Source: Thermodesulfovibrionia bacterium
Lineage (GTDB): Bacteria > Nitrospirota > Thermodesulfovibrionia > UBA6902
NCBI GenBank assembly: GCA_947259645.1
Contig: CAMYND010000001.1
Span: 11,169-75,168, forward strand
Direction of reading: 5' to 3'
DNA length: 64,000 nt
Shown: in pieces, positions 1-36,913 of the stretch
Position numbering within the stretch: position 1 is the first letter of the stretch
Layout: each line of letters starts with the position of its first letter
The notes under the pieces: generated by a model
Told to the model about the DNA's origin: nothing
The model's database searches: none
Seen by the model: the letters and a program-made list of their open reading frames with translations, nothing else
Position numbers and translations under genes: made by a program

Positions 1-732
1 CACAATAATCAACGAAAAATAGTTCAGCTCTTCCTCTTTAATCTCCCTTATATCATGAATAATTTTTTCATCATCCATACCAGCCCTGGATATACAGACC
101 GCCCGCTCAACAAGACCCATTTCTGTGAGGAGGCGGACAATGTCATTAAGGACCTTGTTTACTTTCATTAATACAATCGTATCAAAGGTCTCCAGTGCTG
201 CTTTCAGGTTGCCCAGATAGTTAGCAGGCAAGACAGCTATTTTTTCATCGCCCAGAACAAGGGATATCCGGGCCCGGGAAGCAGATGCATTAATTGATGA
301 TACCCCCGGAATTATCTCGATATTCATGGCAGGCTGCTGTTTAAGGAGCTTCTCATACAAATAAAAAAATGTGCTGTATATCGTAGGATCACCGAGCGTC
401 AGAAAAGCTACATTCTGTCCCTCTTGTATCCTTTTTGTAATGCGTTCAGCTGTTTCGTTCCATTTTGCATCCAGCAGGGGCAAGGCATGCCTTGCCCCCA
501 CATCATTAGCTGATGACGCTCTCGTTTTCTTCATCGGAAAATGAGCTTCTATAATCTCTTTTCCCTTCAGGCTGACCGCCTTTTCAACGATTGAAAGGGC
601 AAGGCTCGTTCCCTCTTCCCGGCCCTTGGGAACACAGAGCACAGCTGACTCCTTTATCCGCTTCACAGCCTTCAGGGTCAACAGCTCCGGGTCACCCGGT
701 CCGATCCCGATCGCGTAGAGTGAACCTGACAT
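1..732 (-). CDS. cbiL: Precorrin-2/cobalt-factor-2 C20-methyltransferase (CbiL/CobI), C-terminal part runs off window start
   Basis: Minus-strand translation from ATG at 732: MSGSLYAIGIGPGDPELLTLKAVKRI..., FLTLGDPTIYSTF motif typical of CbiL/CobI SAM methyltransferases; contains in-frame palindrome at 477-498. Confidence 0.8.
   Translation of the reverse strand, partial: MSGSLYAIGIGPGDPELLTLKAVKRIKESAVLCVPKGREEGTSLALSIVEKAVSLKGKEIIEAHFPMKKTRASSANDVGARHALPLLDAKWNETAERITKRIQEGQNVAFLTLGDPTIYSTFFYLYEKLLKQQPAMNIEIIPGVSSINASASRARISLVLGDEKIAVLPANYLGNLKAALETFDTIVLMKVNKVLNDIVRLLTEMGLVERAVCISRAGMDDEKIIHDIREIKEEELNYFSLIIV
477..498. repeat. Palindromic element copy (GGGGCAAGGCATGCCTTGCCCC, 22-nt perfect palindrome) in-frame inside cbiL
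   Basis: Encodes extra GARHALP in the FPM...W loop of CbiL. Confidence 0.7.
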
Positions 733-2051
733 TAGTCTTTTCTCCCGGTCACAATAAATATCGGATTGAGTGCGCTCATATGCCTTTTAGTGCCAACAGT
801 CTTTGATCGCGACACTGAAATCTCGCTTATATCTACTGTACATCCAGCGGCTTCAATGCTCGCAACAGCTTCATTCAGGGTTTCAAGTGTCACCGCATTT
901 ATTACAATAATTCCAGAGGCCATGACCTTGACCGCCATCTTTACAATTCCGGTCATATTCCCGCCGCTACCTCCGATAAATACCCTGTCCGGTGCGGGCA
1001 GGTCTTTTAACACGCCAGGCGCTTCACCCTGTATGATTTCAATATTCATACTGCTATACCTGCTTTTATTCTCATGAATGTTTTTAACCTGTGACTCGTC
1101 TTTCTCTATTGCATAGACCTTCAGTTCCGGAGAAAGTCTGGAGGCCTCAAGCGATACAGAGCCGGATCCTGCGCCGATATCCCATAAAACCCCTTTGTTG
1201 AGGAGTCGGAGCTTGTGGAGCGCCACTGCCCTCACCTCATCTTTTGTAATGAGTCCCCGTGAATGTGCAATCTCCGCTTCTCTCAACCCAAAAAAAACGT
1301 CCGAAGAATACGAACCCGCACTCGAAGCTGAAGAGTCCTTTGCCTCTACATCGGTTCGTTTAATAATAACTACATTCGGATGCTGGAAGGTCATTGCTGA
1401 AATCTCTTCGGGCGTCCCCACAACAATTCTCTCATCTTCATACCCTATCTTTTCACATACAAATATTTGTATAGCTGACCGCTGAAAGCTGAAAGCTGAA
1501 GGCTCTATAATTGCCCCCGCAATTTTTTCAGGACTGTTTACCCTGTCGGTAAGGATGGCAATTTTATTATGCCTGCTGACAAGTCCCGGCAATTCAGAAA
1601 TATCATATTCCAGTTTTCGCCTCTTTGACAGATCAGGCCCGCCATGAAAGCTGATGAGTAAGGCATTATTTGAGGTCTCGCCCACCCGGGCAAAGGCCAC
1701 CTGAACACTCGATAGATCCGGAAAGACTTCAACCGAATCCCTGCCGAAACGTTCTACTGCCAACCGTCCTATGCCGAAAAACATCGGGTCCCCGGCAGCA
1801 ATAAGAGCTATCTTTCTCTTCTCATAATTGCCTGCGATATAGTCCATGGTCTCATAGACATTAGCATGAACAATAATTCTGTCTTTTACGCCTTCGTATT
1901 CAGAGTAACCTTTAAATACCTCCAGAAGGCGGCTGTTTACAAGGACATCATCAGACTGATTAACAGCATCTGAAGCCTTTTTTTCAAGGGGCTTAAAACC
2001 TATTCCGACCACGCTTATCTTATTCACTTCTTGATAACACCTTTCCCTCAT
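732..2051 (-). CDS. cbiET: Precorrin-6Y C5,15-methyltransferase (decarboxylating), fused CbiE+CbiT (CobL-like)
   Basis: 439 aa; N-terminal half tetrapyrrole methylase (IAAGDPMFFGIG), C-terminal half CbiT-like SAM MTase (VLWDIGAGSGSVSLEA); start may be slightly downstream of 2051 because of overlap with cbiD. Confidence 0.85.
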   Translation of the reverse strand: MRERCYQEVNKISVVGIGFKPLEKKASDAVNQSDDVLVNSRLLEVFKGYSEYEGVKDRIIVHANVYETMDYIAGNYEKRKIALIAAGDPMFFGIGRLAVERFGRDSVEVFPDLSSVQVAFARVGETSNNALLISFHGGPDLSKRRKLEYDISELPGLVSRHNKIAILTDRVNSPEKIAGAIIEPSAFSFQRSAIQIFVCEKIGYEDERIVVGTPEEISAMTFQHPNVVIIKRTDVEAKDSSASSAGSYSSDVFFGLREAEIAHSRGLITKDEVRAVALHKLRLLNKGVLWDIGAGSGSVSLEASRLSPELKVYAIEKDESQVKNIHENKSRYSSMNIEIIQGEAPGVLKDLPAPDRVFIGGSGGNMTGIVKMAVKVMASGIIVINAVTLETLNEAVASIEAAGCTVDISEISVSRSKTVGTKRHMSALNPIFIVTGRKD

Positions 2052-3204
2052 AGGATATGAGATACGTGATAACAGGCTGTCCCGCTGTTATCTCCTGGGC
2101 ATAGTTCTTCGCAGCCTTACATACTGCATGCAAGGCAGAAAGACTGTTCGCCCCTGTGTTGTCTTCTGCACAGATATAATCAAATATTTCCCGGGCAGTA
2201 TTGAAGCTCTGTTCCTGCGGCACCTTTAGGCCAAGAGAATTCAAAAATGCTACGGCTTTTTTCGTATCAAGGGCTCCGAACTTCACATGAGTCTGTGGTG
2301 TTGCCATCGCAATTTTTACCATCTTAGCCCACTGGGCAGCAAGGTGTATTTTTTCAAACCCCTTTTTCCTGGCTTCCCTGAGGGAGTACTCCAGGTGGTC
2401 GCCCATGAGCGTGTAAGACTCTTCAGGGAGCTGATATTCTTTCATATGGGACTTCTCAGATGCACGCCCGGCGCAGAGGACTACTTCCTTCCGTCCCATT
2501 GCCCGCGCAACGTCCATGGATGATGTTATTGTCATGGTCCATGCCTCTGTTGATATGGGCTTAACTATTCCGGTTGTTCCAAGGATCGATATGCCGCCGA
2601 CTATACCCAGCCGGTGGTTTAATGTCTTTTTTGCTAACTCCTCGCCCTTTGGTACAGATATAGTGATTTCCATTGCATGGGCACGGCACGCCATGCCCCT
2701 ACAGCTGTGTAATGCCTCTCTTACTGCTTCTTTGATCATCGTTCTTGGCACTGGGTTGATCGCGGGCTCACCCACAGGGACTGATAGTCCTGGTTTGGTA
2801 ACCTTGCCAACTCCTTTTCCGCCTTTAATCTGTAGGGGCACGGCATGCCGTGCCCCTACGCTGTCAGCGCTAATTGACCGGGCTTCCGCTACTATCTCCG
2901 CTCCATTTGTCACATCAGGGTCATCCCCGGCATCTTTAATTACCGAGGCCAGGGCTGATACTATCTGGCCTCTGGTTTCAATTTTCTGTTTCTGAATTTG
3001 AAACCTCACTCTGCTGCCATCAGGAAATGGTATTTCAACGTTATGCAGGGGCGAGCCACCGCTCGCCCTGACAGTGTTTCTTTTATTCATTGATAAGAGC
3101 AGAAGAACCGCTGCTTTCGCAGCAGCAGCAGCACAAGCCCCTGTCGTATACCCTGACCTGAGCTTCTTTTTCTTCATTTCATTGTGCCTTAGTGCCTCTG
3201 CCAC
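2020..3204 (-). CDS. cbiD: Cobalt-precorrin-5B C1-methyltransferase CbiD
   Basis: 394 aa, GYTTGACAAAAAKAA signature of CbiD; carries two in-frame palindrome insertions (2677-2702, 2832-2859). Confidence 0.85.
   Translation of the reverse strand: MAEALRHNEMKKKKLRSGYTTGACAAAAAKAAVLLLLSMNKRNTVRASGGSPLHNVEIPFPDGSRVRFQIQKQKIETRGQIVSALASVIKDAGDDPDVTNGAEIVAEARSISADSVGARHAVPLQIKGGKGVGKVTKPGLSVPVGEPAINPVPRTMIKEAVREALHSCRGMACRAHAMEITISVPKGEELAKKTLNHRLGIVGGISILGTTGIVKPISTEAWTMTITSSMDVARAMGRKEVVLCAGRASEKSHMKEYQLPEESYTLMGDHLEYSLREARKKGFEKIHLAAQWAKMVKIAMATPQTHVKFGALDTKKAVAFLNSLGLKVPQEQSFNTAREIFDYICAEDNTGANSLSALHAVCKAAKNYAQEITAGQPVITYLISYEGKVLSRSE
2677..2702. repeat. Palindromic element copy (degenerate: GGGCACGGCACGCCATGCCCCTAC) in-frame inside cbiD
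   Basis: Encodes RGMACRAHAM insertion. Confidence 0.6.
2832..2859. repeat. Palindromic element copy (GTAGGGGCACGGCATGCCGTGCCCCTAC, 28-nt perfect palindrome) in-frame inside cbiD
   Basis: Encodes VGARHAVPLQ insertion. Confidence 0.75.
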
Positions 3205-3216
3205 TTTGTGCCTTTC

Positions 3217-4575
3217 TTAATACTGATACTCATACTCCATCTGCTCAAGTGCATCATCACGGAGGAGGTATTTCAGATTGTCCTCTGCGATCATTTTGAA
3301 GGCATACTGGATGACTTCTTTGTAAAAGTCACAGAACACCGCTTTTTTATACATGTCCCCGCGGGCATGCATTTCAGCCGGGCATGGCGATCCGCATATA
3401 TGCCTGAAATCACAAATATCGCATTCATCAATTTTTTCTACAACACGAGACCTAATCTCTTTGAATGGTTTTGAATTCATTGCCTTCTCAATTGATGTCT
3501 TGAAGATATTACCTCCGGAGAATTCCTTGAATCCAATGAACTCGCCGCAGGGAACCATAGCTCCATCAGCTGTTACCGTAAGGAAGGTACGACCTCCTCC
3601 GCAGGGAGATATGTCGCACATCATTCTCCTTGCCGTCGGTGAAATGATCGCAAGCAACACATTGGCAAAGTTGCCGACAACGATCTGGCGGCCGGTCTTT
3701 TTTGTCAGGTCCATCGCGGTGTTCACCGCCTTTATCAGATGCTTGGCATACTCTGCATCATCCGCCTTTATCTTGTCAGCGCGTTTCTGCGTAAGACGCA
3801 CAGGATTCAGAAGTACCAGGGGCACCCCTTTTTTATGGAGAAATTTCACAAGCTGGGAAAGCTTCTCAACATTCAGCTTTGTGACCGTGCAGATAACATT
3901 CAGTCCCTCATATCCTTTAAACCAATCCAGGGCCTGTACGGCTTTTTTGTAGTTTCCGCCGCCATCTCTGGATACGCGGGAGCGGTTGTTGTCCGCGGCA
4001 GTAGCAGCGTCAAGGGAGATGCCTATTCCAACGCGGTACTTCTTGATAAATTCAACGTCCTCTTTTTCAAGAAGAAGAGAGTTGGTCTGGATTCCGAAGA
4101 GCATTTTCCTGTGATACTTTTTAATAGATTTAAAGAGTATGTCCTTTGCCAGGAGCGGCTCTGCGGCATGGTAGACAATAACAGGTTTTTTCTTCTTGCC
4201 CTTGAAATGCGCTGCGATTTTGCTGAGCGCCAGATCAAGCTGCTCCCATGTCATCTGGGTTCCCTGCGTCCTTATCTTTGAAGGAATATAGCAGTAGGGA
4301 CAGTTGGCATTGCATCTGTCAGTGGGGTCAATATAGACACAGTTCAACGGTTCATTGAATCTGAAGTTATGCATCTCTTTATCAAGATGTTTTATCTCCT
4401 TCTTATACAGCTCGATCATCTTCTGGGGAAGCATGAAATCACCGTTGTTCCTCGGCAGCGCGCTCCAGAATATATTTTCCGGATCAATGGCCAGCTTCCA
4501 GTTTTCATCGATGTTGGAAAAGGACAGTCCCCGTTCCTCTTTTACCGGCGTTGTGCAACTGTTCTTTTTGCTCAT
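3217..4575 (-). CDS. Radical SAM protein with C-terminal SPASM domain and ~85-aa N-terminal extension (RRE-like?)
   Basis: CNANCPYCY (CX3CX2C) motif, C-terminal Cys clusters (CGGGRTF...VPCGEF, CDICDFRHICGSPC) typical of SPASM; good RBS TAAGGAGA before ATG at 4575 (ORF extends to 4677 but internal Met with RBS preferred). Confidence 0.75.
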   Translation of the reverse strand: MSKKNSCTTPVKEERGLSFSNIDENWKLAIDPENIFWSALPRNNGDFMLPQKMIELYKKEIKHLDKEMHNFRFNEPLNCVYIDPTDRCNANCPYCYIPSKIRTQGTQMTWEQLDLALSKIAAHFKGKKKKPVIVYHAAEPLLAKDILFKSIKKYHRKMLFGIQTNSLLLEKEDVEFIKKYRVGIGISLDAATAADNNRSRVSRDGGGNYKKAVQALDWFKGYEGLNVICTVTKLNVEKLSQLVKFLHKKGVPLVLLNPVRLTQKRADKIKADDAEYAKHLIKAVNTAMDLTKKTGRQIVVGNFANVLLAIISPTARRMMCDISPCGGGRTFLTVTADGAMVPCGEFIGFKEFSGGNIFKTSIEKAMNSKPFKEIRSRVVEKIDECDICDFRHICGSPCPAEMHARGDMYKKAVFCDFYKEVIQYAFKMIAEDNLKYLLRDDALEQMEYEYQY

Positions 4576-4736
4576 GGTGCTTTTTCTCCTTATAGTTTTT
4601 TTTAATTCCTTTAATCCAGGCAGATTGTCATACCGAGCGGAGAGAGGAATCTTACGATTTCTCCCTTCAGTCGACATGACAGCTTTTCATGCTTATCATC
4701 CCGGGAAGAATAGACACGACAAATTAAAGAGTGGGC

Positions 4737-4767
4737 AGGCAGACCAGCCTTCAGCAGGCTGATCTGC
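4737..4767 (-). other. 12-bp stem/7-nt loop hairpin between small ORF and rSAM gene (possible attenuator/processing site)
   Basis: GGCAGAUCAGCC-ugcugaa-GGCUGGUCUGCC on the transcript strand, followed by a moderately U-rich stretch. Confidence 0.35.
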
Positions 4768-4786
4768 CAACCCGACACTTCATTGA

Positions 4787-4927
4787 TCAAAGAGGCATTT
4801 TCTTCTTCGGCACGTCACCATACATCACAAAATGAGTAAGGCCGTTAGCGGTCTTTGCACATTTCATGTGATAGGAAACAGCAGCCTTCGTGTTCGCCTT
4901 CTTCGGGGCTTTTCTTGTCTTTTTCAA
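4787..4927 (-). CDS. Possible 46-codon small basic ORF between cbiO and the rSAM gene (hypothetical; TTG start 4 nt after cbiO stop)
   Basis: TTG preceded by GGGAGGTGA (overlapping cbiO 3' end); encodes MKKTRKAPKKANTKAAVSYHMKCAKTANGLTHFVMYGDVPKKKMPL; not in ORF track because <60 aa; unverified. Confidence 0.2.
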   Translation of the reverse strand: MKKTRKAPKKANTKAAVSYHMKCAKTANGLTHFVMYGDVPKKKMPL

Positions 4928-4931
4928 GACG

Positions 4932-5786
4932 TCACCTCCCTTTCAATGAAGTTTCGAGAGATTTGAGAATCTCCCGTCTTGCCTCACCAATGGTGAGGGG
5001 AATGCGATCAAAGGATAATTTATCCTCATGTTTCAGCCGGTAAATAAGTTCCGCAATATGAGGGAGGCGCAGTTTAATATTCGCCATATCCTCCGGTGCG
5101 TTGAATACATCCTCCGGTGTCCCTCCCCTGCTGAAATGACCCTTGCTCAATATATACAAACGGTCAAGAAAGACCGGGACAAGGTCAACGCTGTGTGTGG
5201 CCATTATTACTGTAACGCCATTTTCCTTATTAAGCTTCTGCAACAGCTCCATCATCCTGTATTCACCCATAGGGTCGAGACCTGCTGTAGGCTCATCCAG
5301 AAGGAGCGTTTCATGGCCCATGGCGAGCAGGCCGGCGATACATGCGCGCTTCCGTTGACCGAAACTCAGGTTGTGAACGGACTTTTTCTCAAGGCCCTCC
5401 AGGTCAACCTGTTTCAGTGCATGTAAAACACGGCCTTCAACATCCTGAGCGCCAAGTCCCATATTTGTCGGGCCGAATGCCACATCTTCAAACAGCGTTG
5501 GCGCAAACAACTGGTCATCAGGATTTTGAAAAACAAGACCAACTTTTCTGTATATTTCCCTGGGAGAAAGTTTCGTTATATCAATGCCTGCTAAATATAT
5601 TTCACCCTCAATCCCTTTCAGCAGTTTGTCCATCGCCTTTAAGAGGGTTGTTTTGCCAGACCCATTTGCACCGAGCAGCCCAATAAACTCGCCCTTTCTG
5701 ACATCAAGACTTATGTCATGAAGTGCGCTGGTTCCGTCAGGGTACCTGTAGGACAGGTTTCTCACCGAATACATCAGATCATCCAT
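4932..5786 (-). CDS. cbiO: Cobalt ECF transporter ATP-binding protein CbiO
   Basis: Walker A GANGSGKTT, ABC signature LSFGQRKR, Walker B LLLDEPTAGLD; sits downstream of cbiMNQ. Confidence 0.8.
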   Translation of the reverse strand: MDDLMYSVRNLSYRYPDGTSALHDISLDVRKGEFIGLLGANGSGKTTLLKAMDKLLKGIEGEIYLAGIDITKLSPREIYRKVGLVFQNPDDQLFAPTLFEDVAFGPTNMGLGAQDVEGRVLHALKQVDLEGLEKKSVHNLSFGQRKRACIAGLLAMGHETLLLDEPTAGLDPMGEYRMMELLQKLNKENGVTVIMATHSVDLVPVFLDRLYILSKGHFSRGGTPEDVFNAPEDMANIKLRLPHIAELIYRLKHEDKLSFDRIPLTIGEARREILKSLETSLKGR

Positions 5787-6535
5787 GTAATCCCTCCGGC
5801 TATCATGATCAGCGCTGCGCCGGCAAGTTCAGCAGTCCTGAAGGGCTCGCCTTTAAGGATTGGCATGTCGCCTGTGTAACCCCGCTGCACCATGGCATCT
5901 GCTGTCTTCTGGCTCTGCTCAAACCCGCGGAGCACGAGCGATCCGGTGAGTACGCCGAAGGAATGAAGCCCTTTTCTCAACCCCACGTATCCCAGGCGAT
6001 TCTTCTGAGCATTATATATCGTGTGTGCGTCATCAAGAAACAGGAACAAATATCTGTAGGCAAACATCATTATTTCAATAAAAGCCTTCGGCACCTTCAG
6101 CCATGAGAGGGCAGCAACAAATTCTATAAAGGGCGTTGCAAAGCCCAGGGCAACAACGAGCGATACGCCGCCGATGATTCTGGATGTGATCTGGATTCCC
6201 TCCATAAAGCCATCAGCATGGGCGGAAAGACCGATGCCGAACAGGTTCAATGAAAAAAGTATTTCCTGACCGGAAAAAAATGTCTTTAACACCAGAATTA
6301 CAGCGGCAATAAATAAAGGCTGAGCAGCTCTGAGAGCCACAACTCTCACAGGCACCCTCATGGACAGGCAAAGGAGCAAAGAAAACGCAGCCACTGAGAG
6401 TGGAAACATTACCCCCTTATAACTGAGCACCATGATAATCAGCACAAGCACGACGACCAGCTTGATTCTGGCATCAATTGCTGAGAGAAAGGTCTCTTTG
6501 TTAAAATTATCTGAAAAACAGTTATACGCTGACAA
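5774..6535 (-). CDS. cbiQ: Cobalt ECF transporter T component CbiQ
   Basis: 253-aa multi-TM protein in cbiM-N-Q-O order. Confidence 0.75.
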   Translation of the reverse strand: MSAYNCFSDNFNKETFLSAIDARIKLVVVLVLIIMVLSYKGVMFPLSVAAFSLLLCLSMRVPVRVVALRAAQPLFIAAVILVLKTFFSGQEILFSLNLFGIGLSAHADGFMEGIQITSRIIGGVSLVVALGFATPFIEFVAALSWLKVPKAFIEIMMFAYRYLFLFLDDAHTIYNAQKNRLGYVGLRKGLHSFGVLTGSLVLRGFEQSQKTADAMVQRGYTGDMPILKGEPFRTAELAGAALIMIAGGITWMI

Positions 6536-6881
6536 TCTTTTTCTCCTGTTTTTTCCCTGATTTTTCTGCTCTCTGCTTTCTGTTCTGCGGGCTGTTCTCT
6601 GTCAACATTCTCCAGTAGTACCCCGCAGCAAATCCTCCAACCAGGCCGCCGATGAGAAACATAAACAACAGAAGGTCTCCCTGATCAGTATTAATGACAG
6701 GATCTTTGCCTGGCCTTCCATGCTCTTCAGCATACTTTTCAATAACTGTTTGATCGACTCCGGACCATTTAGCATCAGACACAGAGATGGTCACCAGGAT
6801 ACCTGAAAAAATAACCACTATCAGCATGAGAAGGCCTTTCAGGAGAATCTGATATCTGATATTTGATAGTTGATAGTTCAC
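6522..6881 (-). CDS. cbiN: Cobalt transport protein CbiN (with basic C-terminal extension)
   Basis: 119 aa, two TM segments, located between cbiM and cbiQ. Confidence 0.7.
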   Translation of the reverse strand: MNYQLSNIRYQILLKGLLMLIVVIFSGILVTISVSDAKWSGVDQTVIEKYAEEHGRPGKDPVINTDQGDLLLFMFLIGGLVGGFAAGYYWRMLTENSPQNRKQRAEKSGKKQEKKIVSV

Positions 6882-7621
6882 AGAGTGCCTCCTGCCTGTT
6901 CCTGTTTTATCACGCCGAGCTTCACCAGCAGGTCAGCTCTTCTCCGGTAAAGTAGTGTCACCATACCGGCGGTCATAGCGCCCTCAACAATCCCGAGGGG
7001 CAACTGAGTTGGTACAAATGCGATCACGATTTTGCCCAGGAGAGGCAAGAAGGGTTCTGAGCCCCGTATGCCTGAGGCAAGTTCAACAGACGTTGTGAGA
7101 TAAATCGCCCAGTCTGAGAGCAGTCCGGCACAGAAGGCCGACACTCCAAGGCCCGCGTTGCATCGCCTGAGAAATTTAAAAATACCATACCCGGTAAAGG
7201 CTCCCACAACCCCCATTGAGACAATATCCGCGCCCCATGTGCTCAGACCGCCATGGGCAAAAAAGAGCGCCTGGATAAGAAGCGCCACTGCTGTGATCAG
7301 GACGCTGATAAAAGGCCCGACCAGTATCGCCGGGATCGCCGTGCCTCCGGGGTGTGAGCAAGTACCGGCCGTTGGTACGGGAATGGGCATAAGGGAAATG
7401 ACAAAGACAACCGCTGCCATTAAGCCGATGAGCGGCTTGAATGAAAGGTCATTCTTTGAAAGATCTTTCATTCTCTTTATTCCGGCTGCAACAAAGGGGA
7501 GCGCCAGGACAAACCAGAGCACTGCCCAGTTCAGCGGCAGAATCCCTTCAGATATATGCATCGCGAAGACACTGCCGGGCAGGACCAGCAGAACTATAAA
7601 GACCAGCACAATACTATACAT
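6878..7621 (-). CDS. cbiM: Cobalt transport substrate-capture protein CbiM
   Basis: N-terminal MHISEGILP motif characteristic of CbiM/NikM, 247 aa polytopic. Confidence 0.85.
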   Translation of the reverse strand: MYSIVLVFIVLLVLPGSVFAMHISEGILPLNWAVLWFVLALPFVAAGIKRMKDLSKNDLSFKPLIGLMAAVVFVISLMPIPVPTAGTCSHPGGTAIPAILVGPFISVLITAVALLIQALFFAHGGLSTWGADIVSMGVVGAFTGYGIFKFLRRCNAGLGVSAFCAGLLSDWAIYLTTSVELASGIRGSEPFLPLLGKIVIAFVPTQLPLGIVEGAMTAGMVTLLYRRRADLLVKLGVIKQEQAGGTL

Positions 7622-7623
7622 TA

Positions 7624-8622: not shown

Positions 8623-8631
8623 AGTGCTCCC

Positions 8632-10065
8632 TTACCCCGCTACAGTATTTTTCCTTGCAGGGGTTATTTGATTAACAAAGCTCTGTGCAGCCCCTTCGTT
8701 ACTTCCAAAATGAAGATGAATATAGCTGCCAATCGTGTTCTTTACCTTGTATCCTTCATCATATAAGTAATTACCTGATCCATCATGTACAGTATAAATC
8801 AATTCAGCCGTTCCTCGTCCTCTCTGTTGCTGATCACTGACCCCTGACCCCTGACCGCTTCCGTTAATTTCCGAATAATGAAACTCATGGCCCCTCAGAA
8901 CAGTCCCCTTTTTCCCGAATAGAGAATCTGCCTGTAAGACTGTTTCCCGATAGCCCAGTCTCATTCTCTTTTTCATCATCCTTGTTTGAAAAGGAAATAC
9001 CCCGGCCATCGGATGAAATACCCCCTCAAAATCATATATGCCCTCAGTGAGGTACATGAACCCGCCGCACTCTCCATATACCGGCAATCCCCGGTCTGCG
9101 AACTCCCTGACCGATTCCATAAGGGACTTGTTGGCGGAAAGACCCGCGGCGTGAAGCTCAGGATATCCTCCTCCCAGGTAAATACCGTCAACACCTTCCG
9201 GAACTATTTTATCTGCAAGGGGGCTGAAAGGCACTATCTCTGCTCCCGCATCTCTTAACAGGTCCAGGTTGTCCTGATAGTAAAAACAGAACGCTTTGTC
9301 GTATGCAATTCCGATTTTTACCTTTCCCGGGTTAACGCGACTCTCCGGATTCATCTGTTTTACTTCAGGAATGTTCTCTCCCTGTTTTTTACCGGCTATG
9401 CGATCCAGATCTACATGCATCAATAGAGCCTCTGCCAGCATCTCTATGTCCTTTATGCTCATCGGTATCTCTTCAGCAACAACAAGTCCGAGATGTCTGT
9501 GGGGGATCTTGAATTCAAGGTCTCTCGGCAAATACCCCAGCACAGGGATATCCTGAATGCTCTCTTTTAATCTCTTATAATGTCTTTCCGATGCAACGCG
9601 GTTAAATATCACCCCGGCAAATGCAGGGGTAGGGTGCGCCCTGCCTTTACTGCCATTTTCTGTCTTGCTGAATTCACGGAATCCGTGTACAACAGCCCCC
9701 GCACTCTCTGCCATTCCATACGCGTCAACAACAAGGAGAACGGGAAGGCCCAGTTCTGCGGCAAGGTCAGCTGTGCTGATATTTCCATCATACATGCCCA
9801 TAACACCCTCTACTACAGCGATGTCAGCCGATGACGAATGCTTCTGAAAGCTGCGCCTTACATACTCTGTTCCGCACATCCAGAGATCAAGATTTCGCGA
9901 GGGTATTCCCGTTACCAGCCTGTGCAGTCCCGTATCGATAAAATCAGGCCCCGCCTTGAAGGGCTGCACACGATACCCTTTCTTTCTCAGTGCGGCAAGT
10001 ATGCCAAGGGTAATGGTCGTTTTTCCGCAGCCGCTGTGCGTTCCGGCGATAACTATGCCCTGCAT
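8632..10065 (-). CDS. cbiA: Cobyrinate a,c-diamide synthase CbiA
   Basis: MQGIVIAGTHSGCGKTTITLGILAAL P-loop N-term, C-terminal glutamine amidotransferase region; 477 aa. Confidence 0.85.
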   Translation of the reverse strand: MQGIVIAGTHSGCGKTTITLGILAALRKKGYRVQPFKAGPDFIDTGLHRLVTGIPSRNLDLWMCGTEYVRRSFQKHSSSADIAVVEGVMGMYDGNISTADLAAELGLPVLLVVDAYGMAESAGAVVHGFREFSKTENGSKGRAHPTPAFAGVIFNRVASERHYKRLKESIQDIPVLGYLPRDLEFKIPHRHLGLVVAEEIPMSIKDIEMLAEALLMHVDLDRIAGKKQGENIPEVKQMNPESRVNPGKVKIGIAYDKAFCFYYQDNLDLLRDAGAEIVPFSPLADKIVPEGVDGIYLGGGYPELHAAGLSANKSLMESVREFADRGLPVYGECGGFMYLTEGIYDFEGVFHPMAGVFPFQTRMMKKRMRLGYRETVLQADSLFGKKGTVLRGHEFHYSEINGSGQGSGVSDQQQRGRGTAELIYTVHDGSGNYLYDEGYKVKNTIGSYIHLHFGSNEGAAQSFVNQITPARKNTVAG

Positions 10066-11210: not shown

Positions 11211-11224
11211 TATCCGGTACTCTC

Positions 11225-12463: not shown

Positions 12464-14061
12464 GAGAGGCCCCCGGGCTGTTTATTCATGCAGTATTCCA
12501 TTCCCACCTGTCGTAAAATAAAACAGATATCTATGTTATTCCTCACCGTATCAGCCCAGCTGTTTATGGCATTCTCTTTTGCTGTCCTGTAACTGAAGGC
12601 GGTTTCCCGGGGCGAGAGTCCTTTTTTCATTCTTAATGCGTTGATTACCGCTGTGCGCAGGCCGTCGTTGTCAAAGATGCCGTGTATATATGTTCCCCAT
12701 ACATTTCCCTTTGTAGATCCGTCTGAAATGGTCTCGCGCGATAGGCCCCTGCGAATTTCAAAGAGCCCAACATCTCCGGTCGTAGAGCCCATATGTATTT
12801 CATAGCCCTTCAGGTTATTCCACCTGCAGCTTGTAGCGCTCTGAACAGCATCAAACCATTTCAGGCTTACCAGGTTCGCTGTTACCTGACAGGTCGTCTT
12901 TGTCCTGTCCATGGTCGTAACAGTATCAAGAAAACCCATGCCGTCAATTTCCTGCAGGTCGCTCTCAACATTGTCAGGGTCAAGCACTTTCTTCCCGATC
13001 ATCTGATAGCCGCCGCAGAGACCGATAAGAGGAGTTCCCTTTTTCACGGCAGCTTTCACGCACTCCTCTATTCCCCGCTCTCTCAGCAGGAGCAGATCAC
13101 TGACCGTGTTTTTCGATCCCGGAATGATGAGCAAATCCGCGGTACTGATATCTTCCTCCCATAAGGAGTATTTCAGCTCAACATCAGGTTCATTCAGAAA
13201 GGGGGCAAAGTCCGTAAAATTCGAGATGTATTTCAGCCGCAGCACCACAACCTTAAGCTCTTTATGGCCTGAATGATCAAATCGGGCGACATGTTCGATG
13301 GAAAGGCCGTCTTCCTCTTCAAGGCCAAGATTGCCCTGATGATAGAGGGTGCCGATCACGGGTCTGCCTGTTTTTTCCTCGATCATTCTCAGGCCGGGGC
13401 GCAGGATATTCATGTCTCCGCGGAATTTATTTACGATGAACGCCTTGATATAATCAGCGTCAGATAGTTCCTGCGTTCCTGTAAGGGCATGGCATGCCAT
13501 GCCCCTACAATCCTTTAATAGCTCAACGGTACCGTAAAACTGGGCAAACACACCGCCCCTGTCAATATCGCCGACAAGGATCACCGGGGCATCAGCATAG
13601 CGGGCGACGCGCATATTGACTACTTCTTCCTTGCTCAGGTTTATCTCTGCCGGGCTTCCCGCCCCCTCGATAATGATCAGATCATAGAGCTTCGAGAGCC
13701 TGTCATAGGCAGCGGTAATTTCTTCCCAGACCCTGTCCTTTATTTCATAGTATTCATGGGCCTTCATTGTCCCGTGGACTTTGCCATTTACAATAACCTG
13801 GCACCCGGCCTCGCCCGTTGCCTTCAGGAGCACCGGATTCATGTCATTGGAGGGTTCCAGCCCGGAAGCCTCAGCCTGAAAAGCCTGGGCACGGCCTATC
13901 TCTCCGCTTTCCCCTGTTATAAAAGAGTTCAGGGCCATGTTCTGCGACTTAAAAGGAGCAACCTTGATCCCCATGTCTTTGAATACCCTGCAGAGGCCCG
14001 CAACGATAGCGCTCTTTCCTGCTCCAGATCCGGTTCCCTGTATCATTATCGCTTTTGCCAT
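12460..14061 (-). CDS. cobQ: Cobyric acid synthase CobQ/CbiP
   Basis: MAKAIMIQGTGSGAGKS N-term, GATase-like C-term; carries in-frame palindrome (CRGMACHAL) at 13481-13508. Confidence 0.85.
   Translation of the reverse strand: MAKAIMIQGTGSGAGKSAIVAGLCRVFKDMGIKVAPFKSQNMALNSFITGESGEIGRAQAFQAEASGLEPSNDMNPVLLKATGEAGCQVIVNGKVHGTMKAHEYYEIKDRVWEEITAAYDRLSKLYDLIIIEGAGSPAEINLSKEEVVNMRVARYADAPVILVGDIDRGGVFAQFYGTVELLKDCRGMACHALTGTQELSDADYIKAFIVNKFRGDMNILRPGLRMIEEKTGRPVIGTLYHQGNLGLEEEDGLSIEHVARFDHSGHKELKVVVLRLKYISNFTDFAPFLNEPDVELKYSLWEEDISTADLLIIPGSKNTVSDLLLLRERGIEECVKAAVKKGTPLIGLCGGYQMIGKKVLDPDNVESDLQEIDGMGFLDTVTTMDRTKTTCQVTANLVSLKWFDAVQSATSCRWNNLKGYEIHMGSTTGDVGLFEIRRGLSRETISDGSTKGNVWGTYIHGIFDNDGLRTAVINALRMKKGLSPRETAFSYRTAKENAINSWADTVRNNIDICFILRQVGMEYCMNKQPGGLS
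13481..13508. repeat. Palindromic element copy (GTAAGGGCATGGCATGCCATGCCCCTAC) in-frame inside cobQ
   Basis: Encodes CRGMACHAL insertion. Confidence 0.75.
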
Positions 14062-14064
14062 AAC

Positions 14065-14712
14065 CTATGCCACAAAATTCATATGCCTGATTACGGGATA
14101 GTCCCACAGTTCAATCACATTTAATGCTGAAAAATCCTGTTCAATCCTGAATATATTTTCCAGGGGAATACCGAGAAGCTCACACAGGATCACCCTGTTT
14201 ATTCCGCCATGGGCAACGAGCGCTATCTGTTCACCATCATGCCTTGAAACTATTTCATGAAACGCCTTTATTGCGCGGTCTCTCACAGCCAGGGTGCTTT
14301 CACCTTCGAGAGGACTGTACTGCAGAGGATTTTCAGCCCAGGCCTTGAAGGCATCGGGCCACTTCTCTTTTATCTCGTCAAAACTCATCCCTTCCCAGAC
14401 ACCGAAATTACGCTCTTTCAATCCATCCGTAATCACCGGCTTGAGTCCAAAAGGGGCGGCAATGATCTCTGCACTTTTACGGGCACGGCTCAGGTCCGAA
14501 CAATAGACCGCTTGCAACTCCCCGCTGACCGGGCCAGAACCTGATTTGCGGCCCAGGTGGCGGGCAAGTCTCTTTACCTGCTCAATGCCATTTTCTGAAA
14601 GAGGAACATCAATGTGGCCCTTGTACCTGCGGGAATCAGCATCCTCTGTTTCGCCGTGTCGTATAAGATAAATTTTTGTCATCATCGTCTGCTCAACAAC
14701 ACTGCGCTTCAT
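14065..14712 (-). CDS. cobC: Alpha-ribazole phosphatase CobC (histidine phosphatase family)
   Basis: IYLIRHGET...RHG/His phosphatase motifs, operon context between cobS and cobQ. Confidence 0.7.
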   Translation of the reverse strand: MKRSVVEQTMMTKIYLIRHGETEDADSRRYKGHIDVPLSENGIEQVKRLARHLGRKSGSGPVSGELQAVYCSDLSRARKSAEIIAAPFGLKPVITDGLKERNFGVWEGMSFDEIKEKWPDAFKAWAENPLQYSPLEGESTLAVRDRAIKAFHEIVSRHDGEQIALVAHGGINRVILCELLGIPLENIFRIEQDFSALNVIELWDYPVIRHMNFVA

Positions 14713-14730
14713 CGCGCAGCTCCATACCGG

Positions 14731-15531: not shown

Positions 15532-15550
15532 CGCTTATGCCTGAAAATAC

Positions 15551-16621: not shown

Positions 16622-16651
16622 ATGTACCTCCGCGATTTCATTATTATATGG

Positions 16652-17335: not shown

Positions 17336-17344
17336 CCTTTACCC

Positions 17345-19834: not shown

Positions 19835-19926
19835 TCTTCTATTATACCCGAGGGCATGGCAGCGGGCCAGAGAGGAAAAGGAGCATCAATTCTTTTCAAA
19901 ATTATTTTCTTTTGTTACAATGTGCT

Positions 19927-33563: not shown

Positions 33564-33575
33564 CAATAACCGTAG

Positions 33576-33596
33576 GGGCGGGTTTCAAACCCGCCC
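33576..33596 (+). other. Intercistronic hairpin (GGGCGGG-uuucaaa-CCCGCCC) between TAXI receptor and permease genes
   Basis: 7-bp GC-rich stem 13 nt after stop of receptor gene; typical differential-expression attenuator position. Confidence 0.4.
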
Positions 33597-33616
33597 TTAT
33601 AGACTGAAGGGGAAAT

Positions 33617-35342: not shown

Positions 35343-35370
35343 GTAAGGGCATGGCATGCCATGCCCCTAC
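35343..35370. repeat. Palindromic element copy (GTAAGGGCATGGCATGCCATGCCCCTAC), intergenic between TRAP permease and usp
   Basis: Identical to the cobQ copy. Confidence 0.75.
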
Positions 35371-35389
35371 ACGGATAAAGGACACTAAA

Positions 35390-35949: not shown

Positions 35950-35977
35950 GTAGGGGCGCAGCATGCTACGCCCCTAC
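35950..35977. repeat. Palindromic element variant (GTAGGGGCGCAGCATGCTACGCCCCTAC), intergenic between usp and FAH gene
   Basis: Same GTAGGGG...CCCCTAC termini, different palindromic core (GCAGCATGCT). Confidence 0.6.
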
Positions 35978-36022
35978 TGGCCATTGCTCCACCATAACCG
36001 TTCATATAGAGATTCAGCCACT

Positions 36023-36913
36023 ATGAAACTCATCCGTTTTGGCGAACCCCATAAAGAAAAGCCGGGAATAATTATGGAAGACGGAAAGAAGTATGATGTT
36101 TCTTCTTTCGGTGAAGATTATGATGAAAGTTTTTTTGAGACAAATGGTTCTGAACGGCTCAAGACATGGGTGCAAAGGAATGCTCAAGCAGGGGCATGGC
36201 ATGCCATGCCCTTACTCCAGGAAGTGGATTCATTTCGATTAGGACCTCCGGTCTGTCGTCCAGGGAACATAGTATGTATCGGTTTTAACTATATGGACCA
36301 TGCCCGCGAAACAGGCAAACAAGTGCCTCAAGAACCGATTTTCTTCCTGAAATCAACTTCTGCATTTTCAGGGCCGAACGACAATGTGAGGATCCCGCGT
36401 TCAAGCGAAAAAACCGATTGGGAAGTTGAGCTGGCAGTCGTAATCAGTAAAAAAACTTCGTACATAGAGCAGGATAATGCCCTTGACCATATCGCCGGCT
36501 TTGTTTTGGCGAATGACTACTCTGAAAGAGAGTTCCAGTTTAACAGAGGCGGCCAGTGGGTAAAGGGAAAAAGCGCAGACACCTTTGCTCCTCTCGGGCC
36601 CTTTCTGGCAACTCCTGACGAAATCAGGGATTACCGGGACCTGAGAATGTGGCTGAAGGTAAACGGTGTTAAAAAACAGGAAAGTAATACAGCGAATATG
36701 CATCATGATATTCCGACCATTATTTCCAGTGTCAGCCAGTATATGACTCTCTTGCCCGGAGATGTTATCTGCACTGGCACGCCTGCAGGGGTCGGGCATG
36801 GCAGGACTCCACCTGAATACCTGAAGGAAGGAGATCGTATTGAGTACGGCATTGAGCTTCTTGGGGAGGCTGCTCAAAGAGTAGTCAGGTGGGATGAGGC
36901 CGTCAATGTTTAG
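36023..36913 (+). CDS. Fumarylacetoacetate hydrolase (FAH) family protein (hydratase/decarboxylase-like)
   Basis: MKLIRFGEP...GKIVCIGFNYMDHARE...EVELAVVI motifs of FAH family; contains in-frame palindrome insertion (QAGAWHAMPLL) at 36188-36215. Confidence 0.7.
   Translation: MKLIRFGEPHKEKPGIIMEDGKKYDVSSFGEDYDESFFETNGSERLKTWVQRNAQAGAWHAMPLLQEVDSFRLGPPVCRPGNIVCIGFNYMDHARETGKQVPQEPIFFLKSTSAFSGPNDNVRIPRSSEKTDWEVELAVVISKKTSYIEQDNALDHIAGFVLANDYSEREFQFNRGGQWVKGKSADTFAPLGPFLATPDEIRDYRDLRMWLKVNGVKKQESNTANMHHDIPTIISSVSQYMTLLPGDVICTGTPAGVGHGRTPPEYLKEGDRIEYGIELLGEAAQRVVRWDEAVNV
36188..36215. repeat. Palindromic element copy (GCAGGGGCATGGCATGCCATGCCCTTAC) in-frame inside FAH-family gene
   Basis: Encodes AGAWHAMPLL insertion. 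Confidence 0.7.

What the first reader, a model, noticed from the sequence alone, without database searches (positions are those of the whole stretch)
477..36215. Dispersed family of 22-28 bp perfect palindromes (consensus GTAGGGGCAYGGCATGCCRTGCCCCTAC)
At least seven copies occur in 64 kb: 477-498, 2677-2702, 2832-2859, 13481-13508, 35343-35370, 35950-35977 and 36188-36215. Several are perfect 28-mers and two are identical to each other. Chance recurrence of a 28-nt perfect palindrome is negligible, so this looks like a REP/RPE/HIP-like small palindromic element family, presumably genome-wide. The copies can form DNA cruciforms or RNA hairpins and may act in recombination, transcript stability or as substrates of an unknown enzyme. 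No transposase is seen nearby.
Basis: seen in the sequence. Interest (0 to 1): 0.75.

Follow-up and report, generated by a model that had tools for sequence, protein, structure and literature searches.

The report
GTAG-tagged REP palindromes inside genes
The repeated 28-bp palindrome is a real member of the known REP class of small bacterial mobile hairpins; in this Nitrospirota genome most copies sit in frame inside enzyme genes, and in other genomes the same palindrome lies inside the gene of the transposase-like enzyme that probably moves it.

Summary
All seven listed copies exist, with none expected by chance. There is also an eighth copy of a sister family (33572-33600) and at least four decayed relics. 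Only one copy is a perfect 28-mer.

The element is a REP (repetitive extragenic palindrome) of the GTAG-tagged superfamily, a known kind (Di Nocera 2013). It consists of GTAG, a 20-bp GC-rich hairpin and CTAC.

Five of the eight copies lie inside genes (CbiL-like, CbiD twice, CobQ, FAH-family). All five read through in one of the two stop-free registers, giving VGARHAVPL or RGTACRAPT. They fall in linkers that are absent from distant orthologues or predicted to be loops. The three intergenic copies start 8-10 nt after a stop codon.

The same 20-mer occurs in at least 119 genome stretches from more than ten phyla. A RAYT-like Y1/HUH transposase clade carries this palindrome, or a sister palindrome, inside its own ORF just after the HUH motif. 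The internal copy co-varies with copies flanking the gene (p about 5e-4).

No such gene lies in the 64-kb window, so the link to this genome is inferred. Verdict: a new member of a known kind. The RAYT-internal copy was not mentioned in the four REP/RAYT papers searched for it.

The parts
474..501 (.). REP copy GCAGGGGCAAGGCATGCCTTGCCCCCAC. It lies inside the CbiL-like methyltransferase ORF (minus strand, runs off the left end) and is read as DVGARHALPLLD (register A). The tags have mutated to GCAG/CCAC. The stem variant A-T is compensatory.
2675..2702 (.). Decayed REP copy in CbiD loop 2 (minus-strand gene 2020-3204), read as CRGMACRAH (register B). It has 4 arm mismatches.
2832..2859 (.). 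Perfect 28-mer GTAGGGGCACGGCATGCCGTGCCCCTAC in CbiD loop 1, read as VGARHAVPL (register A). It is identical to the copy inside RAYT-like genes of other phyla.
13481..13508 (.). REP copy GTAAGGGCATGGCATGCCATGCCCCTAC inside CobQ (minus-strand gene 12460-14061), read as CRGMACHALT (register B). It is part of a 15-aa insertion that is absent from about 70 diverse CobQ representatives.
33572..33600 (.). Sister-family REP GTAGGGGCGGGTTTCAAACCCGCCCTTAT. It is intergenic, starting 9 nt after the stop of the NMT1-like binding-protein gene and ending 16 nt before the DctM-type transporter start.
   Evidence: The same family is associated with RAYT-like genes in L149, L171 and L199.
35343..35370 (.). REP copy identical to the one at 13481. 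It is intergenic, starting 8 nt after the stop of the DctM-type gene and lying upstream of the Usp gene (start 35390).
35950..35977 (.). REP inner-stem variant GTAGGGGCGCAGCATGCTACGCCCCTAC. It is intergenic, starting 9 nt after the Usp stop and lying 45 nt before the FAH-family start (36023).
36188..36215 (.). REP copy GCAGGGGCATGGCATGCCATGCCCTTAC inside the FAH-family hydrolase gene (plus strand), read as AGAWHAMPL (register A). It is an insertion of about 9 codons that is absent from most orthologues.
3045..3072 (.). Decayed relic (GTCAGGGCGAGCGGTGGCTCGCCCCTGC on the coding strand) in the CbiD N-terminal linker. L120 has an intact GCAGGGGCGAGCGGCCGCTCGCCCCTAC at the orthologous site.
   Evidence: loop position
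9623..9650 (.). Probable relic in CbiA (GTAAAGGCAGGGCGCACCCTACCCCTGC on the coding strand). L120 has an intact GTAGGGGCAAGGCATGCCTTGCCCCTAC at the same site.
12725..12752 (.). Probable relic in the CobQ C-terminal part (peptide RRGLSRETIS). L120 has GTAGGGGCACGTCGCAACGTGCCCTTAC (peptide CRGTSQRALT) at the same site, with the same length.
2130..2157 (.). Weak relic in the CbiD C-terminal linker (head ACAGGGGC). L120 also has a decayed copy there (GCAGGGGCTTACTGCAATAAGCCCTTAC).

Best explanation
The palindromes are REP elements of the GTAG-tagged superfamily. Each is a GTAG head, a 20-bp GC-rich inverted repeat and, in this family, a mirror CTAC, so either strand folds into a 12-14-bp hairpin.

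The most likely mechanism is as follows. On single-stranded DNA the hairpin plus GTAG is bound and cut and rejoined by a RAYT-type Y1/HUH tyrosine transposase, which spreads copies around the chromosome. Copies that land in genes survive only under two conditions. They must be in one of the two registers without a stop (GTA-GGG... giving VGARHAVPL, or xGT-AGG... giving RGTACRAPT; the third register reads TAG). They must also fall in surface linkers. They then persist for long periods and decay in place into ordinary linker peptide. Intergenic copies sit just after stop codons, where they may act as 3' RNA hairpins, as E. coli REPs do.

What is shown:
- the anatomy of the element and its excess over chance
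- in-frame read-through of the genic copies
- insertions relative to orthologues, and loop location
- decay at orthologous sites
- wide distribution across phyla
- a RAYT-like clade that carries the same palindrome inside and beside its gene, with co-variation

What is inferred:
- that this enzyme mobilises the copies
- that this genome encodes one
- any RNA-level role
For: Element and excess:
- There are 6 core matches against 0 expected, and a full copy list.
- The GTAG head and/or CTAC foot is present on the 136 copies found in 119 genome stretches. It is often on one side only, as in classical REPs.
- There is a Y at -1 and R at +1 preference and no target-site duplication.
- DNA hairpin dG is -14.4 kcal/mol for the perfect copy (z -6.4).
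- Stem sub-variants are compensatory (C-G, T-A, A-T).

Genic copies:
- All five genic copies are in stop-free registers.
- The CobQ copy lies in a 15-aa insertion that about 70 diverse representatives lack.
- The FAH copy is an insertion of about 9 codons that most orthologues lack.
- The CbiD copies and the N-terminal relic lie in coil linkers with pLDDT 60-70, against 87 or more in the flanks.
- The syntenic relative L120 has at least 7 elements in 21 kb. Orthologous sites are filled, decayed or empty.
- Elements are 86-89% identical between the two genomes, against 70% for the cbiD gene.

Enzyme link:
- ORFs in L021 and L068 match NCBIfam REP_Tyr_transpos (E about 1e-16, 58-59 bits against an 80-bit cutoff) and Pfam Y1_Tnp (29 and 18 bits against a 23-bit cutoff), and contain the 28-mer in frame.
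- The only PDB relative is E. coli TnpA-REP, 4ER8.
- At least 109 of the 120 listed homologues encode a recognisable palindrome-derived peptide just after HUH (78 in register B, 9 in register A, 22 from a sister palindrome). Most of the other 11 look degenerate or duplicated.
- 64 of 80 metagenome loci have an internal tagged palindrome.
- In 25 of 42 informative loci an external copy is within 2 mismatches of the internal one, against 5.8% for cross-locus pairs (permutation p about 5e-4).
- External copies cluster 24-234 nt upstream and 17-95 nt downstream of the gene, which is the REPtron layout.

Literature: GTAG REPs occur in 8 phyla, are RAYT-associated and can be intragenic (PMC3733652).
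Against: - No RAYT-like gene lies in the 64-kb window or in L120/L121, so the cognate enzyme in this genome is unproven.
- Both RAYT-like ORFs score below NCBIfam's equivalog cutoff (58-59 against 80 bits). For Pfam Y1_Tnp, L021 passes (29.2 against 23 bits) but L068 does not (18 bits).
- Mobilisation of REPs by RAYTs has never been demonstrated in vivo for any family (background knowledge).
- A 28-nt unit is not a multiple of three, and no filled/empty pair was close enough to read the junction. Insert sizes differ (15 aa in CobQ, about 9 aa in FAH).
- 'Extragenic', the name-giving REP feature, is not met by 5 of 8 copies here.
- Genome-wide copy number is unknown.
- Only 3-4 of 119 foreign loci contain a Y1 gene. 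That is expected for dispersed copies, but it means the association rests mainly on the RAYT-centred loci.
Confidence: 0.75

Rival explanations
1. The hairpins are primarily host-functional structures, such as mRNA 3' stabilisers, attenuators, or binding sites for gyrase, IHF or a regulator. On this view selection for that role maintains them, and they are not mobile.
For: The three intergenic copies start 8-10 nt after stop codons of co-directional genes, which is the typical place for REP RNA hairpins (PMC3733652). Arms are kept complementary by paired changes. Elements are more conserved than the host gene between the window and L120.
Against: Five of eight copies lie inside unrelated ORFs, where a stabiliser or terminator makes little sense. 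There is no T-run. The same 28-mer occurs in more than ten phyla at non-orthologous places. Filled and empty sites occur among orthologues. Many copies decay. The family co-varies with a transposase-like gene. A secondary, co-opted role for some copies is not excluded.
Confidence: 0.12
2. The copies are spread by a process other than a RAYT. Candidates are another single-strand transposase (IS200/IS605 TnpA or a TnpB-associated system), or gene conversion or template switching between existing copies. On this view the RAYT-like gene is just another insertion target.
For: No RAYT-like gene lies in the window or in L120. The 28-nt length does not fit clean in-frame transposition. The same CbiD loops hold different palindrome families in different Nitrospirota, which would fit replacement or conversion. 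Tandem partial duplications occur at the RAYT-internal site.
Against: The GTAG tag and the REPtron-like layout with co-variation point specifically to the Y1 enzyme. No other protein family is enriched next to the copies; the top cluster covers 11 of 119 loci. Flank complementarity is at chance, which argues against fold-back extension.
Confidence: 0.1
3. The recurring peptide (VGARHAVPL or RGTACRAPT) is a selected protein motif, and the DNA palindrome is a by-product.
For: The peptide recurs in many proteins and is highly conserved after the HUH motif of the RAYT-like clade.
Against: The same DNA is read in two different registers at the same site, both in CbiD orthologues and in RAYT-like genes. 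Identical DNA occurs in intergenic spacers. The host proteins are unrelated. The segments fall in low-confidence loops. Among RAYT-like genes chosen for carrying the exact 28-mer, the flanking 90 nt are only 53-61% identical.
Confidence: 0.02
4. The palindromes are an assembly or sequencing artefact, such as chimeric fold-back reads or adapter-like sequence in metagenome-assembled genomes.
For: Nearly all carriers are MAGs or metagenome contigs.
Against: The copies are in frame in conserved genes. They vary by compensatory changes and decay gradually at orthologous sites in independent assemblies from JGI, ENA and NCBI. They also occur in an isolate genome, Iodobacter sp. CM08 (L037).
Confidence: 0.01

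Closest known systems
GTAG-tagged REP superfamily (Di Nocera, De Gregorio and Rocco 2013, BMC Genomics 14:522; REPs and RAYTs of Nunvar 2010; E. coli and Pseudomonas REPs)
   Same: It is a 20-40-bp GC-rich palindrome with a terminal GTAG. It has sub-families with complementary stem changes, and copies sit close behind stop codons between co-directional genes. It is associated with a Y1/HUH RAYT-type gene flanked by the same repeat (a REPtron). Occasional in-frame intragenic copies are already documented for this superfamily.
   Different: - Both ends are tagged (GTAG...CTAC), so the whole 28-mer is one palindrome, whereas the described families carry the tag unpaired at one end.
- The majority of copies in this window are intragenic.
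- Neither the 20-mer cores nor the peptides were found in the searched literature. Figure 1 of the 2013 paper is not held, so identity with one of its 24 families could not be excluded.
- The associated RAYT-like clade also carries a copy inside its ORF.
Rickettsia palindromic elements (RPE; Ogata et al. 2000) and other 'selfish DNA in protein-coding genes'
   Same: Palindromic repeats are inserted in frame into many unrelated housekeeping genes. They are tolerated in surface loops and add short peptide segments that then diverge.
   Different: RPE-1 is 100-150 bp. RPE-4 and RPE-6 belong to the CGTC-tagged REPs, not the GTAG-tagged ones (PMC3733652). The host lineage is different (Alphaproteobacteria), and the papers read report no tyrosine transposase associated with CGTC repeats.
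REPIN-RAYT systems (Bertels and Rainey 2011; Bertels et al. 2017)
   Same: A short hairpin repeat population is tied to a single-copy, domesticated Y1 transposase whose gene is flanked by the repeat. The RAYT family occurs in many bacterial classes; Group 4 occurs in Cyanobacteria, Chlorobia and Caldilineae.
   Different: REPINs are doublets of two inverted REPs with a spacer, whereas the copies here are singletons. Those systems are described as lineage-specific and vertically inherited, whereas here the identical 20-28-mer is seen in more than ten phyla. An internal copy in the RAYT ORF is not mentioned in the papers read.
IS200/IS605 subterminal hairpins with TnpA (Y1 transposase)
   Same: Single-strand hairpin recognition by a HUH/Y1 enzyme, with no target-site duplication.
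   Different: Those hairpins are the ends of a 0.7-2-kb insertion sequence that carries the transposase. The 28-bp unit here is free-standing. The protein scores much better against the RAYT model than against the IS200 model (58 against 17 bits).
HIP1 of cyanobacteria
   Same: An over-represented palindrome found in coding and non-coding DNA.
   Different: HIP1 is an 8-bp motif (GCGATCGC) without hairpin potential or a GTAG tag. It is not an insertion.

Membership tests
REP, GTAG-tagged superfamily | Short (20-40 bp) GC-rich imperfect palindrome able to form a stem-loop | tested here: met
   The units are 28 bp with 0-2 arm mismatches in six of the eight copies. DNA hairpin dG is -8.9 to -14.4 kcal/mol.
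REP, GTAG-tagged superfamily | Conserved GTAG (or GTRG/GYAG) tetranucleotide at one end | tested here: met
   The window copies carry GTAG, GTAA or GCAG heads. The 136 foreign copies carry GTAG and/or CTAC, often on one side only.
REP, GTAG-tagged superfamily | High copy number, dispersed over the genome | tested here: inconclusive
   There are 8 copies plus at least 4 relics in 64 kb, all within 1-36 kb, and at least 7 in 21 kb of the relative L120. The rest of the genome is not available.
REP, GTAG-tagged superfamily | Extragenic location, typically just downstream of ORFs | tested here: not met
   Only 3 of 8 copies are intergenic, starting 8-10 nt after stop codons. Five are translated in frame. 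Intragenic REPs are, however, documented within this superfamily (PMC3733652). In other phyla the copies are depleted from long ORFs: 54% lie in one, against 88% of random positions.
REP, GTAG-tagged superfamily | Cognate RAYT (Y1/HUH) gene flanked by the same repeat (REPtron) | tested here: inconclusive
   This is met in other genomes. RAYT-like genes carry the same palindrome upstream, downstream and inside, and the copies co-vary. It is not testable for this genome, because no Y1 gene lies in the window.
REP, GTAG-tagged superfamily | Sub-families differing by complementary stem changes | tested here: met
   CACGG/CCGTG, CATGG/CCATG and CAAGG/CCTTG occur in the window. The centre CATG is CGCG in L120.
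RAYT (REP-associated tyrosine transposase) - for the associated protein clade | HUH motif, catalytic Tyr motif and a match to the curated RAYT model | tested here: inconclusive
   PNHxHG and WQRNYYEH are invariant or nearly so. NCBIfam NF047646 is the best hit, but at 58-59 bits, below the 80-bit cutoff. For Pfam Y1_Tnp, L021 scores 29 bits and passes the 23-bit cutoff, while L068 scores 18 bits and does not. The only PDB match is TnpA-REP 4ER8. There are about 23 extra residues between the two motifs.
Rickettsia palindromic elements (RPE) | In-frame insertion of a palindromic repeat into protein-coding genes | tested here: met
Rickettsia palindromic elements (RPE) | Element type: 100-150 bp (RPE-1) or a CGTC-tagged short REP (RPE-4, RPE-6) | tested here: not met
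   The unit is 28 bp and GTAG-tagged. RPE-4 and RPE-6 are classed with the CGTC repeats in PMC3733652.
MITE | Terminal inverted repeats plus a target-site duplication | tested here: not met
   There is no direct duplication. Flank complementarity is at chance (0.24-0.31) in 111 copies.
HIP1-like hyper-abundant short motif | An 8-bp motif over-represented genome-wide, not an insertion | tested here: not met
   The unit is 28 bp and is present or absent as an insertion relative to orthologues.

The most novel reading that the evidence does not exclude
A widespread RAYT-like Y1/HUH clade keeps its own cognate GTAG palindrome inside its coding sequence, immediately after the catalytic HUH motif. 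The nucleotide sequence is constrained, not the peptide:
- The same DNA is read in two registers.
- Among genes that carry the exact 28-mer, the flanking 90 nt are only 53-61% identical.
- The internal copy co-varies with flanking and dispersed copies.

This would be a self-marked REP system. The internal copy could be a master template, an autoregulatory site or a re-insertion hotspot. The gene-plus-hairpin unit has either moved between phyla or been held constant since before they split. In Nitrospirota of this type the family has expanded into genes and supplies linker peptides to many enzymes.
Probability: 0.45. Interest if true: 0.7.

Novelty: new member of a known kind. Interest (0 to 1): 0.5.

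Why it matters
For the window itself, the palindromes explain odd, low-complexity-looking linker peptides in otherwise conserved enzymes (VGARHAVPL, RGMACHA). They also explain spurious N-terminal extensions of ORF calls, such as 'MACHAPT...' before the Usp start. This is useful for annotating Nitrospirota and many other MAGs.

More broadly, how REPs spread and what RAYTs do in vivo is still unsettled. A RAYT-like clade that carries a sequence-invariant copy of its hairpin inside its ORF gives a compact substrate-enzyme pair to test biochemically. The matching copies beside the gene and across genomes of many phyla extend that pair. The same system offers a natural experiment on how selfish hairpins become protein sequence.

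Tried and rejected
- I looked for a transposase in the window. Pfam scans of the ten small or unassigned ORFs and of ten large ORFs, and a six-frame HUH...Y motif scan, found none.
- I first read copy 477 as lying in the TAG register with a destroyed stop. That was wrong. The correct frame of the left-end ORF gives DVGARHALPLLD, register A.
- I tested whether the palindrome is extended by flanking complementary bases, which could indicate a fold-back origin or a palindromic target. Complementarity is at chance.
- I clustered all ORFs in the 119 foreign loci to find a neighbouring gene family. No family is enriched (top cluster 11 of 119). The search did reveal the RAYT-like ORFs that contain the palindrome.
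- I checked pairs of copies 0.8-1.2 kb apart for an enclosed RAYT and found none.
- PDB homologues of CbiD and FAH were too distant to define insertion boundaries. Closer orthologue sets replaced them.
- A look-up of the window's own contig by exact CbiD protein found no record, so the rest of the source genome could not be read.
- Literature searches for the exact 20-mer cores and for the peptides found nothing. A 9-mer search returned only unrelated primer hits.
- Viral contigs carry the motif in 22 stretches, but none holds a RAYT-like gene, so there is no evidence for a phage vector.


Full report
**1. Observation**

The 22-nt core with up to 3 mismatches matches six times, against 0.00 expected in 100 dinucleotide-preserving shuffles. 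The seventh copy (35950-35977) is an inner-stem variant.

Taking each copy as a 28-mer:
- 2832-2859 is perfect: GTAGGGGCACGGCATGCCGTGCCCCTAC.
- 13481 and 35343 are identical to each other and have one arm mismatch.
- 35950 has one arm mismatch.
- 474-501 and 36188 have two each.
- 2675-2702 has four and no longer folds better than shuffled sequence.

A hairpin scan found an eighth copy of a sister family at 33572-33600. As single-stranded DNA the perfect copy folds with -14.4 kcal/mol (z -6.4). The other copies, apart from the decayed 2675-2702, fold with -8.9 to -11.5 kcal/mol.

**2. Where the copies lie**

The window comes from a Nitrospirota bacterium. The best non-self CbiD and FAH relatives are Nitrospirota or Nitrospiraceae MAGs. 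Positions 1-17 kb hold an anaerobic cobalamin (cbi/cob) operon on the minus strand.

Five copies are inside long ORFs and are read through:

| Copy | Host gene | Peptide |
|---|---|---|
| 474-501 | CbiL-like methyltransferase | DVGARHALPLLD |
| 2832-2859 | CbiD | VGARHAVPL |
| 2675-2702 | CbiD | CRGMACRAH |
| 13481-13508 | CobQ | CRGMACHALT |
| 36188-36215 | FAH-family hydrolase | AGAWHAMPL |

Because the unit is its own reverse complement, only three registers exist. Register A (GTA GGG...) and register B (xGT AGG...) are open, and register C reads TAG. The window has three copies in A, two in B and none in C.

The other three copies are intergenic. They start 8-10 nt after the stop codons of co-directional genes: NMT1-like binding protein, DctM-type transporter and Usp. 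The ORF list's 'MACHAPT...' and 'MLRPY...' N-termini are spurious extensions through two of these copies.

**3. The genic copies are insertions, not native sequence**

- **CobQ.** About 70 diverse representatives (41-50% identity) have a fixed-length linker (...LLxx-EERxxVKGxIINKFRGD). The window protein has 15 extra residues there, containing the element. Only the closest representative (63% identity) also has an insert, of different sequence.
- **FAH.** Most orthologues (282-287 aa) lack the roughly 9 extra codons. A minority carry unrelated 8-9-aa inserts at the same point.
- **CbiD.** Seventy Nitrospirota orthologues are well conserved except for two hypervariable loops. These loops are filled with peptides that back-translate to different GTAGGGGC...GCCCCTAC palindromes. 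Examples are VGARHAVPL, VGARRAVPL, VGAIHELPL (= GTAGGGGCAATTCATGAATTGCCCCTAC), RGTACRAPT, RGKARLAPT, RGILQYAPT and CRGEVTSPL.
- **Structure.** An AlphaFold model (mean pLDDT 84.5) places these two loops and a third N-terminal relic in coil linkers. Their pLDDT is 60-70, between elements with 87 or more.

**4. Persistence and decay**

L120 is a syntenic cbi operon from a relative (CbiD 72% aa identity). It carries at least seven elements in 21 kb. Gene-by-gene alignment shows several kinds of site:
- Filled in both genomes: CbiD loops 1 and 2. The elements are 25/28 and 24/28 identical, against 70% nucleotide identity for the gene. The centre CATG to CGCG difference is symmetric.
- Intact in L120 but decayed in the window at equal or similar length: the CobQ C-terminus, CbiA and the CbiD N-terminus.
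- Filled only in L120: CbiX/C.
- Decayed in both: the CbiD C-terminus.

So the elements enter genes, stay for long periods and erode into ordinary linker sequence.

**5. Distribution**

The carriers include Acidobacteriota, Chloroflexota, Planctomycetota, Omnitrophota, Nitrospirota, Desulfobacterales, Gemmatimonadales, Verrucomicrobiia, a cyanobacterium, Deinococcus, Betaproteobacteria (including the isolate Iodobacter sp. CM08) and one Methanosarcinales MAG.

The 136 copies carry GTAG on the 5' side and/or CTAC on the 3' side, and very often only one of the two. GTAG plus a hairpin is the defining anatomy of GTAG-type REPs.

In 111 distinct doubly tagged copies there is no target duplication. 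Flank complementarity is at chance. There is a symmetric preference for Y at -1 (A in 5 of 111) and R at +1 (T in 7 of 111).

In these other phyla the copies are depleted from long open frames: 54% lie in a stop-free segment of at least 150 aa, against 88% of random positions. Typical positions are intergenic spacers, for example between pheS, rplT and infC in L033 and upstream of accC in L047.

**6. The enzyme**

No protein family is enriched next to the copies. However, three loci (L021 Dehalococcoidia, L068 Anaerolineae, L105) share an ORF that contains or abuts the palindrome.

The L021 and L068 ORFs have these features:
- HUH (PNHVHGI) and Tyr (WQRNYYEH) motifs.
- A best match to NCBIfam 'REP-associated tyrosine transposase' (E about 1e-16, 58-59 bits, below the 80-bit equivalog cutoff).
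- A match to Pfam Y1_Tnp, at 29 bits for L021 (above the 23-bit cutoff) and 18 bits for L068 (below it).
- E. coli TnpA-REP (4ER8) as the only PDB relative.

Among the 120 best homologues (50-83% identity; several are named RayT by JGI), at least 109 encode a recognisable palindrome-derived peptide directly after HUH: 78 in register B (RGTACRAPT), 9 in register A (GARHAVPL) and 22 from a sister palindrome (VGAKNFSPL = GTAGGGGCGAAAAATTTTTCGCCCCTAC). Most of the other 11 look degenerate or tandemly duplicated.

At the DNA level the perfect 28-mer lies inside the gene in L021, L068, L123, L124 (a Nitrospira MAG), L126, L129, L131, L142, L146 and L151. These ten loci were chosen for carrying the exact 28-mer. 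Their flanking 90 nt are only 53-61% identical. Two registers of the same DNA at the same site show that the nucleotide sequence, not the peptide, is what is kept.

**7. Co-variation test**

Eighty further loci of this clade were taken from metagenomes.
- 64 have a tagged palindrome at +200 to +360 of the gene, and 48 of those have perfect stems.
- In the 42 loci that also have tagged palindromes elsewhere, 25 (60%) have an external copy within 2 mismatches of the internal 22-nt core. For cross-locus pairs the figure is 5.8%. The median distance is 2 against 10, and permutation p is about 5e-4.
- The matching external copies cluster 24-234 nt upstream and 17-95 nt downstream of the gene.

This is the REPtron layout described for RAYTs, plus an internal copy. 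Each gene has its own palindrome variant. The window's perfect copy (2832) equals the commonest variant, and its sister copy (33572) equals another RAYT-associated variant (L149, L171, L199).

**8. Comparison with what is known**

Di Nocera et al. 2013 (PMC3733652) describe GTAG-tagged REPs:
- They occur in more than 80 species of 8 phyla and form 24 families.
- Sub-families differ by complementary stem changes.
- Copies are located close behind ORFs.
- They are associated with RAYT genes.
- In-frame intragenic copies are documented, most in Opitutus terrae. Rickettsia RPE-4 and RPE-6 are classed as CGTC-type REPs.

The kind is therefore known, including its intragenic behaviour.

What I did not find in the literature:
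- The 20-mer cores and the peptides were not found in any searched paper.
- An internal REP inside RAYT genes is not mentioned in Di Nocera 2013, Nunvar 2010, Quentin 2018 or Bertels 2017.

Bertels' 'Group 4' RAYTs (Cyanobacteria, Chlorobia, Caldilineae; 17 classes) may correspond to this clade; I did not test this. Figure 1 of Di Nocera is not held, so I cannot exclude that the family equals one of its 24.

**9. Mechanism and confidence**

The best-supported account is a GTAG REP family mobilised on single-stranded DNA by a RAYT-like Y1/HUH enzyme. Selection then removes genic copies that are in the TAG register or in structured regions.

- Shown: anatomy, excess over chance, in-frame read-through, insertion status, loop location, decay, distribution, and RAYT-like association with co-variation.
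- Inferred: catalysis by this clade, presence of the gene in this genome, and any RNA role of the intergenic copies.
- Unresolved: how a 28-nt unit ends up in frame; whether shared loops reflect repeated insertion or replacement; why the RAYT-like gene keeps an internal copy; and whether the cross-phylum identity reflects transfer or constraint.

**10. Verdict**

This is a real feature and a new member of a known kind (a GTAG-type REP). Its genic load is unusually high in this Nitrospirota lineage. The RAYT-internal cognate copy is a side finding that may be new. Interest is 0.5.

Noticed in passing
L125-L204 and P0121-P0240 (RAYT-like clade); for example L021:2208-2235, L124:2861-2888, L123:10265-10292: The RAYT-like genes carry their cognate GTAG palindrome inside the ORF, right after the HUH motif. 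It appears in two reading registers and co-varies with the flanking copies. The REP/RAYT papers read do not mention this.
   Followed up: yes
L177 (metagenome contig Ga0247727_10027166), positions 93-683 and 5685-6640: Two adjacent palindromes recur with a period of about 295 bp, both upstream of and inside a RAYT-like gene whose match region is unusually long (841 nt). It looks like tandem duplication of a gene segment together with its REPs.
   Followed up: no
Proteins P0145, P0186, P0219, P0220, P0228: The palindrome-encoded peptide after HUH is tandemly and partially duplicated, for example RGTACPERRGTACPERSTACRAPT and GARHHMDVGARHAVPL. This suggests repeated insertion or slippage at that site.
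   Followed up: partly
L205-L226 (IMG/VR contigs), especially L219 (5 copies in 7.8 kb, GC 0.59) and L223: The same 20-mer occurs in 22 stretches of contigs classed as viral, some with several copies. None of these stretches contains a RAYT-like gene.
   Followed up: partly
L059 (Acidobacteriota MAG), minus strand, offset about 415 in the reverse-complemented locus: A different Y1/HUH gene (PNHVHVLF...WQREYYDH) without an internal palindrome lies in a locus that has three copies of the 20-mer.
   Followed up: no
L091:1-370: A tandem run of the palindrome unit (three exact or near-exact copies about 45 nt apart) lies next to a run of N, probably an assembly gap caused by the repeats.
   Followed up: no
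window 35351-35389 and 35963-36022: The mechanical ORFs for the Usp and FAH genes start inside intergenic REP copies ('MACHAPT...', 'MLRPYWPLL...'). The likely true starts are 35390 (MTKKV) and 36023 (MKLIRFGE). Such REP-derived N-terminal extensions are an annotation hazard.
   Followed up: partly
window 3217-4677: A radical-SAM/SPASM gene lies between cbiO and cbiD. It is conserved at 82% aa identity and in the same position in the relative L120, and it holds no element. Its role in the cobalamin operon is not obvious.
   Followed up: no
window 1-20000 versus 20000-64000: GC skew is negative where genes are on the minus strand (1-19.8 kb) and near zero to positive where they are on the plus strand. 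This fits a coding-strand G excess; no replication landmark needs to be invoked.
   Followed up: no
CbiD orthologues P0039, P0040, P0046, P0048, P0049, P0054, P0055, P0058, P0064, P0065 (loop 2): Some Nitrospirota CbiD proteins carry a longer insert of about 20-25 aa in loop 2 (for example AGKRGSAE...KNLPASSLPRFHA). It recurs with variations and may derive from a different, longer repeat family.
   Followed up: no
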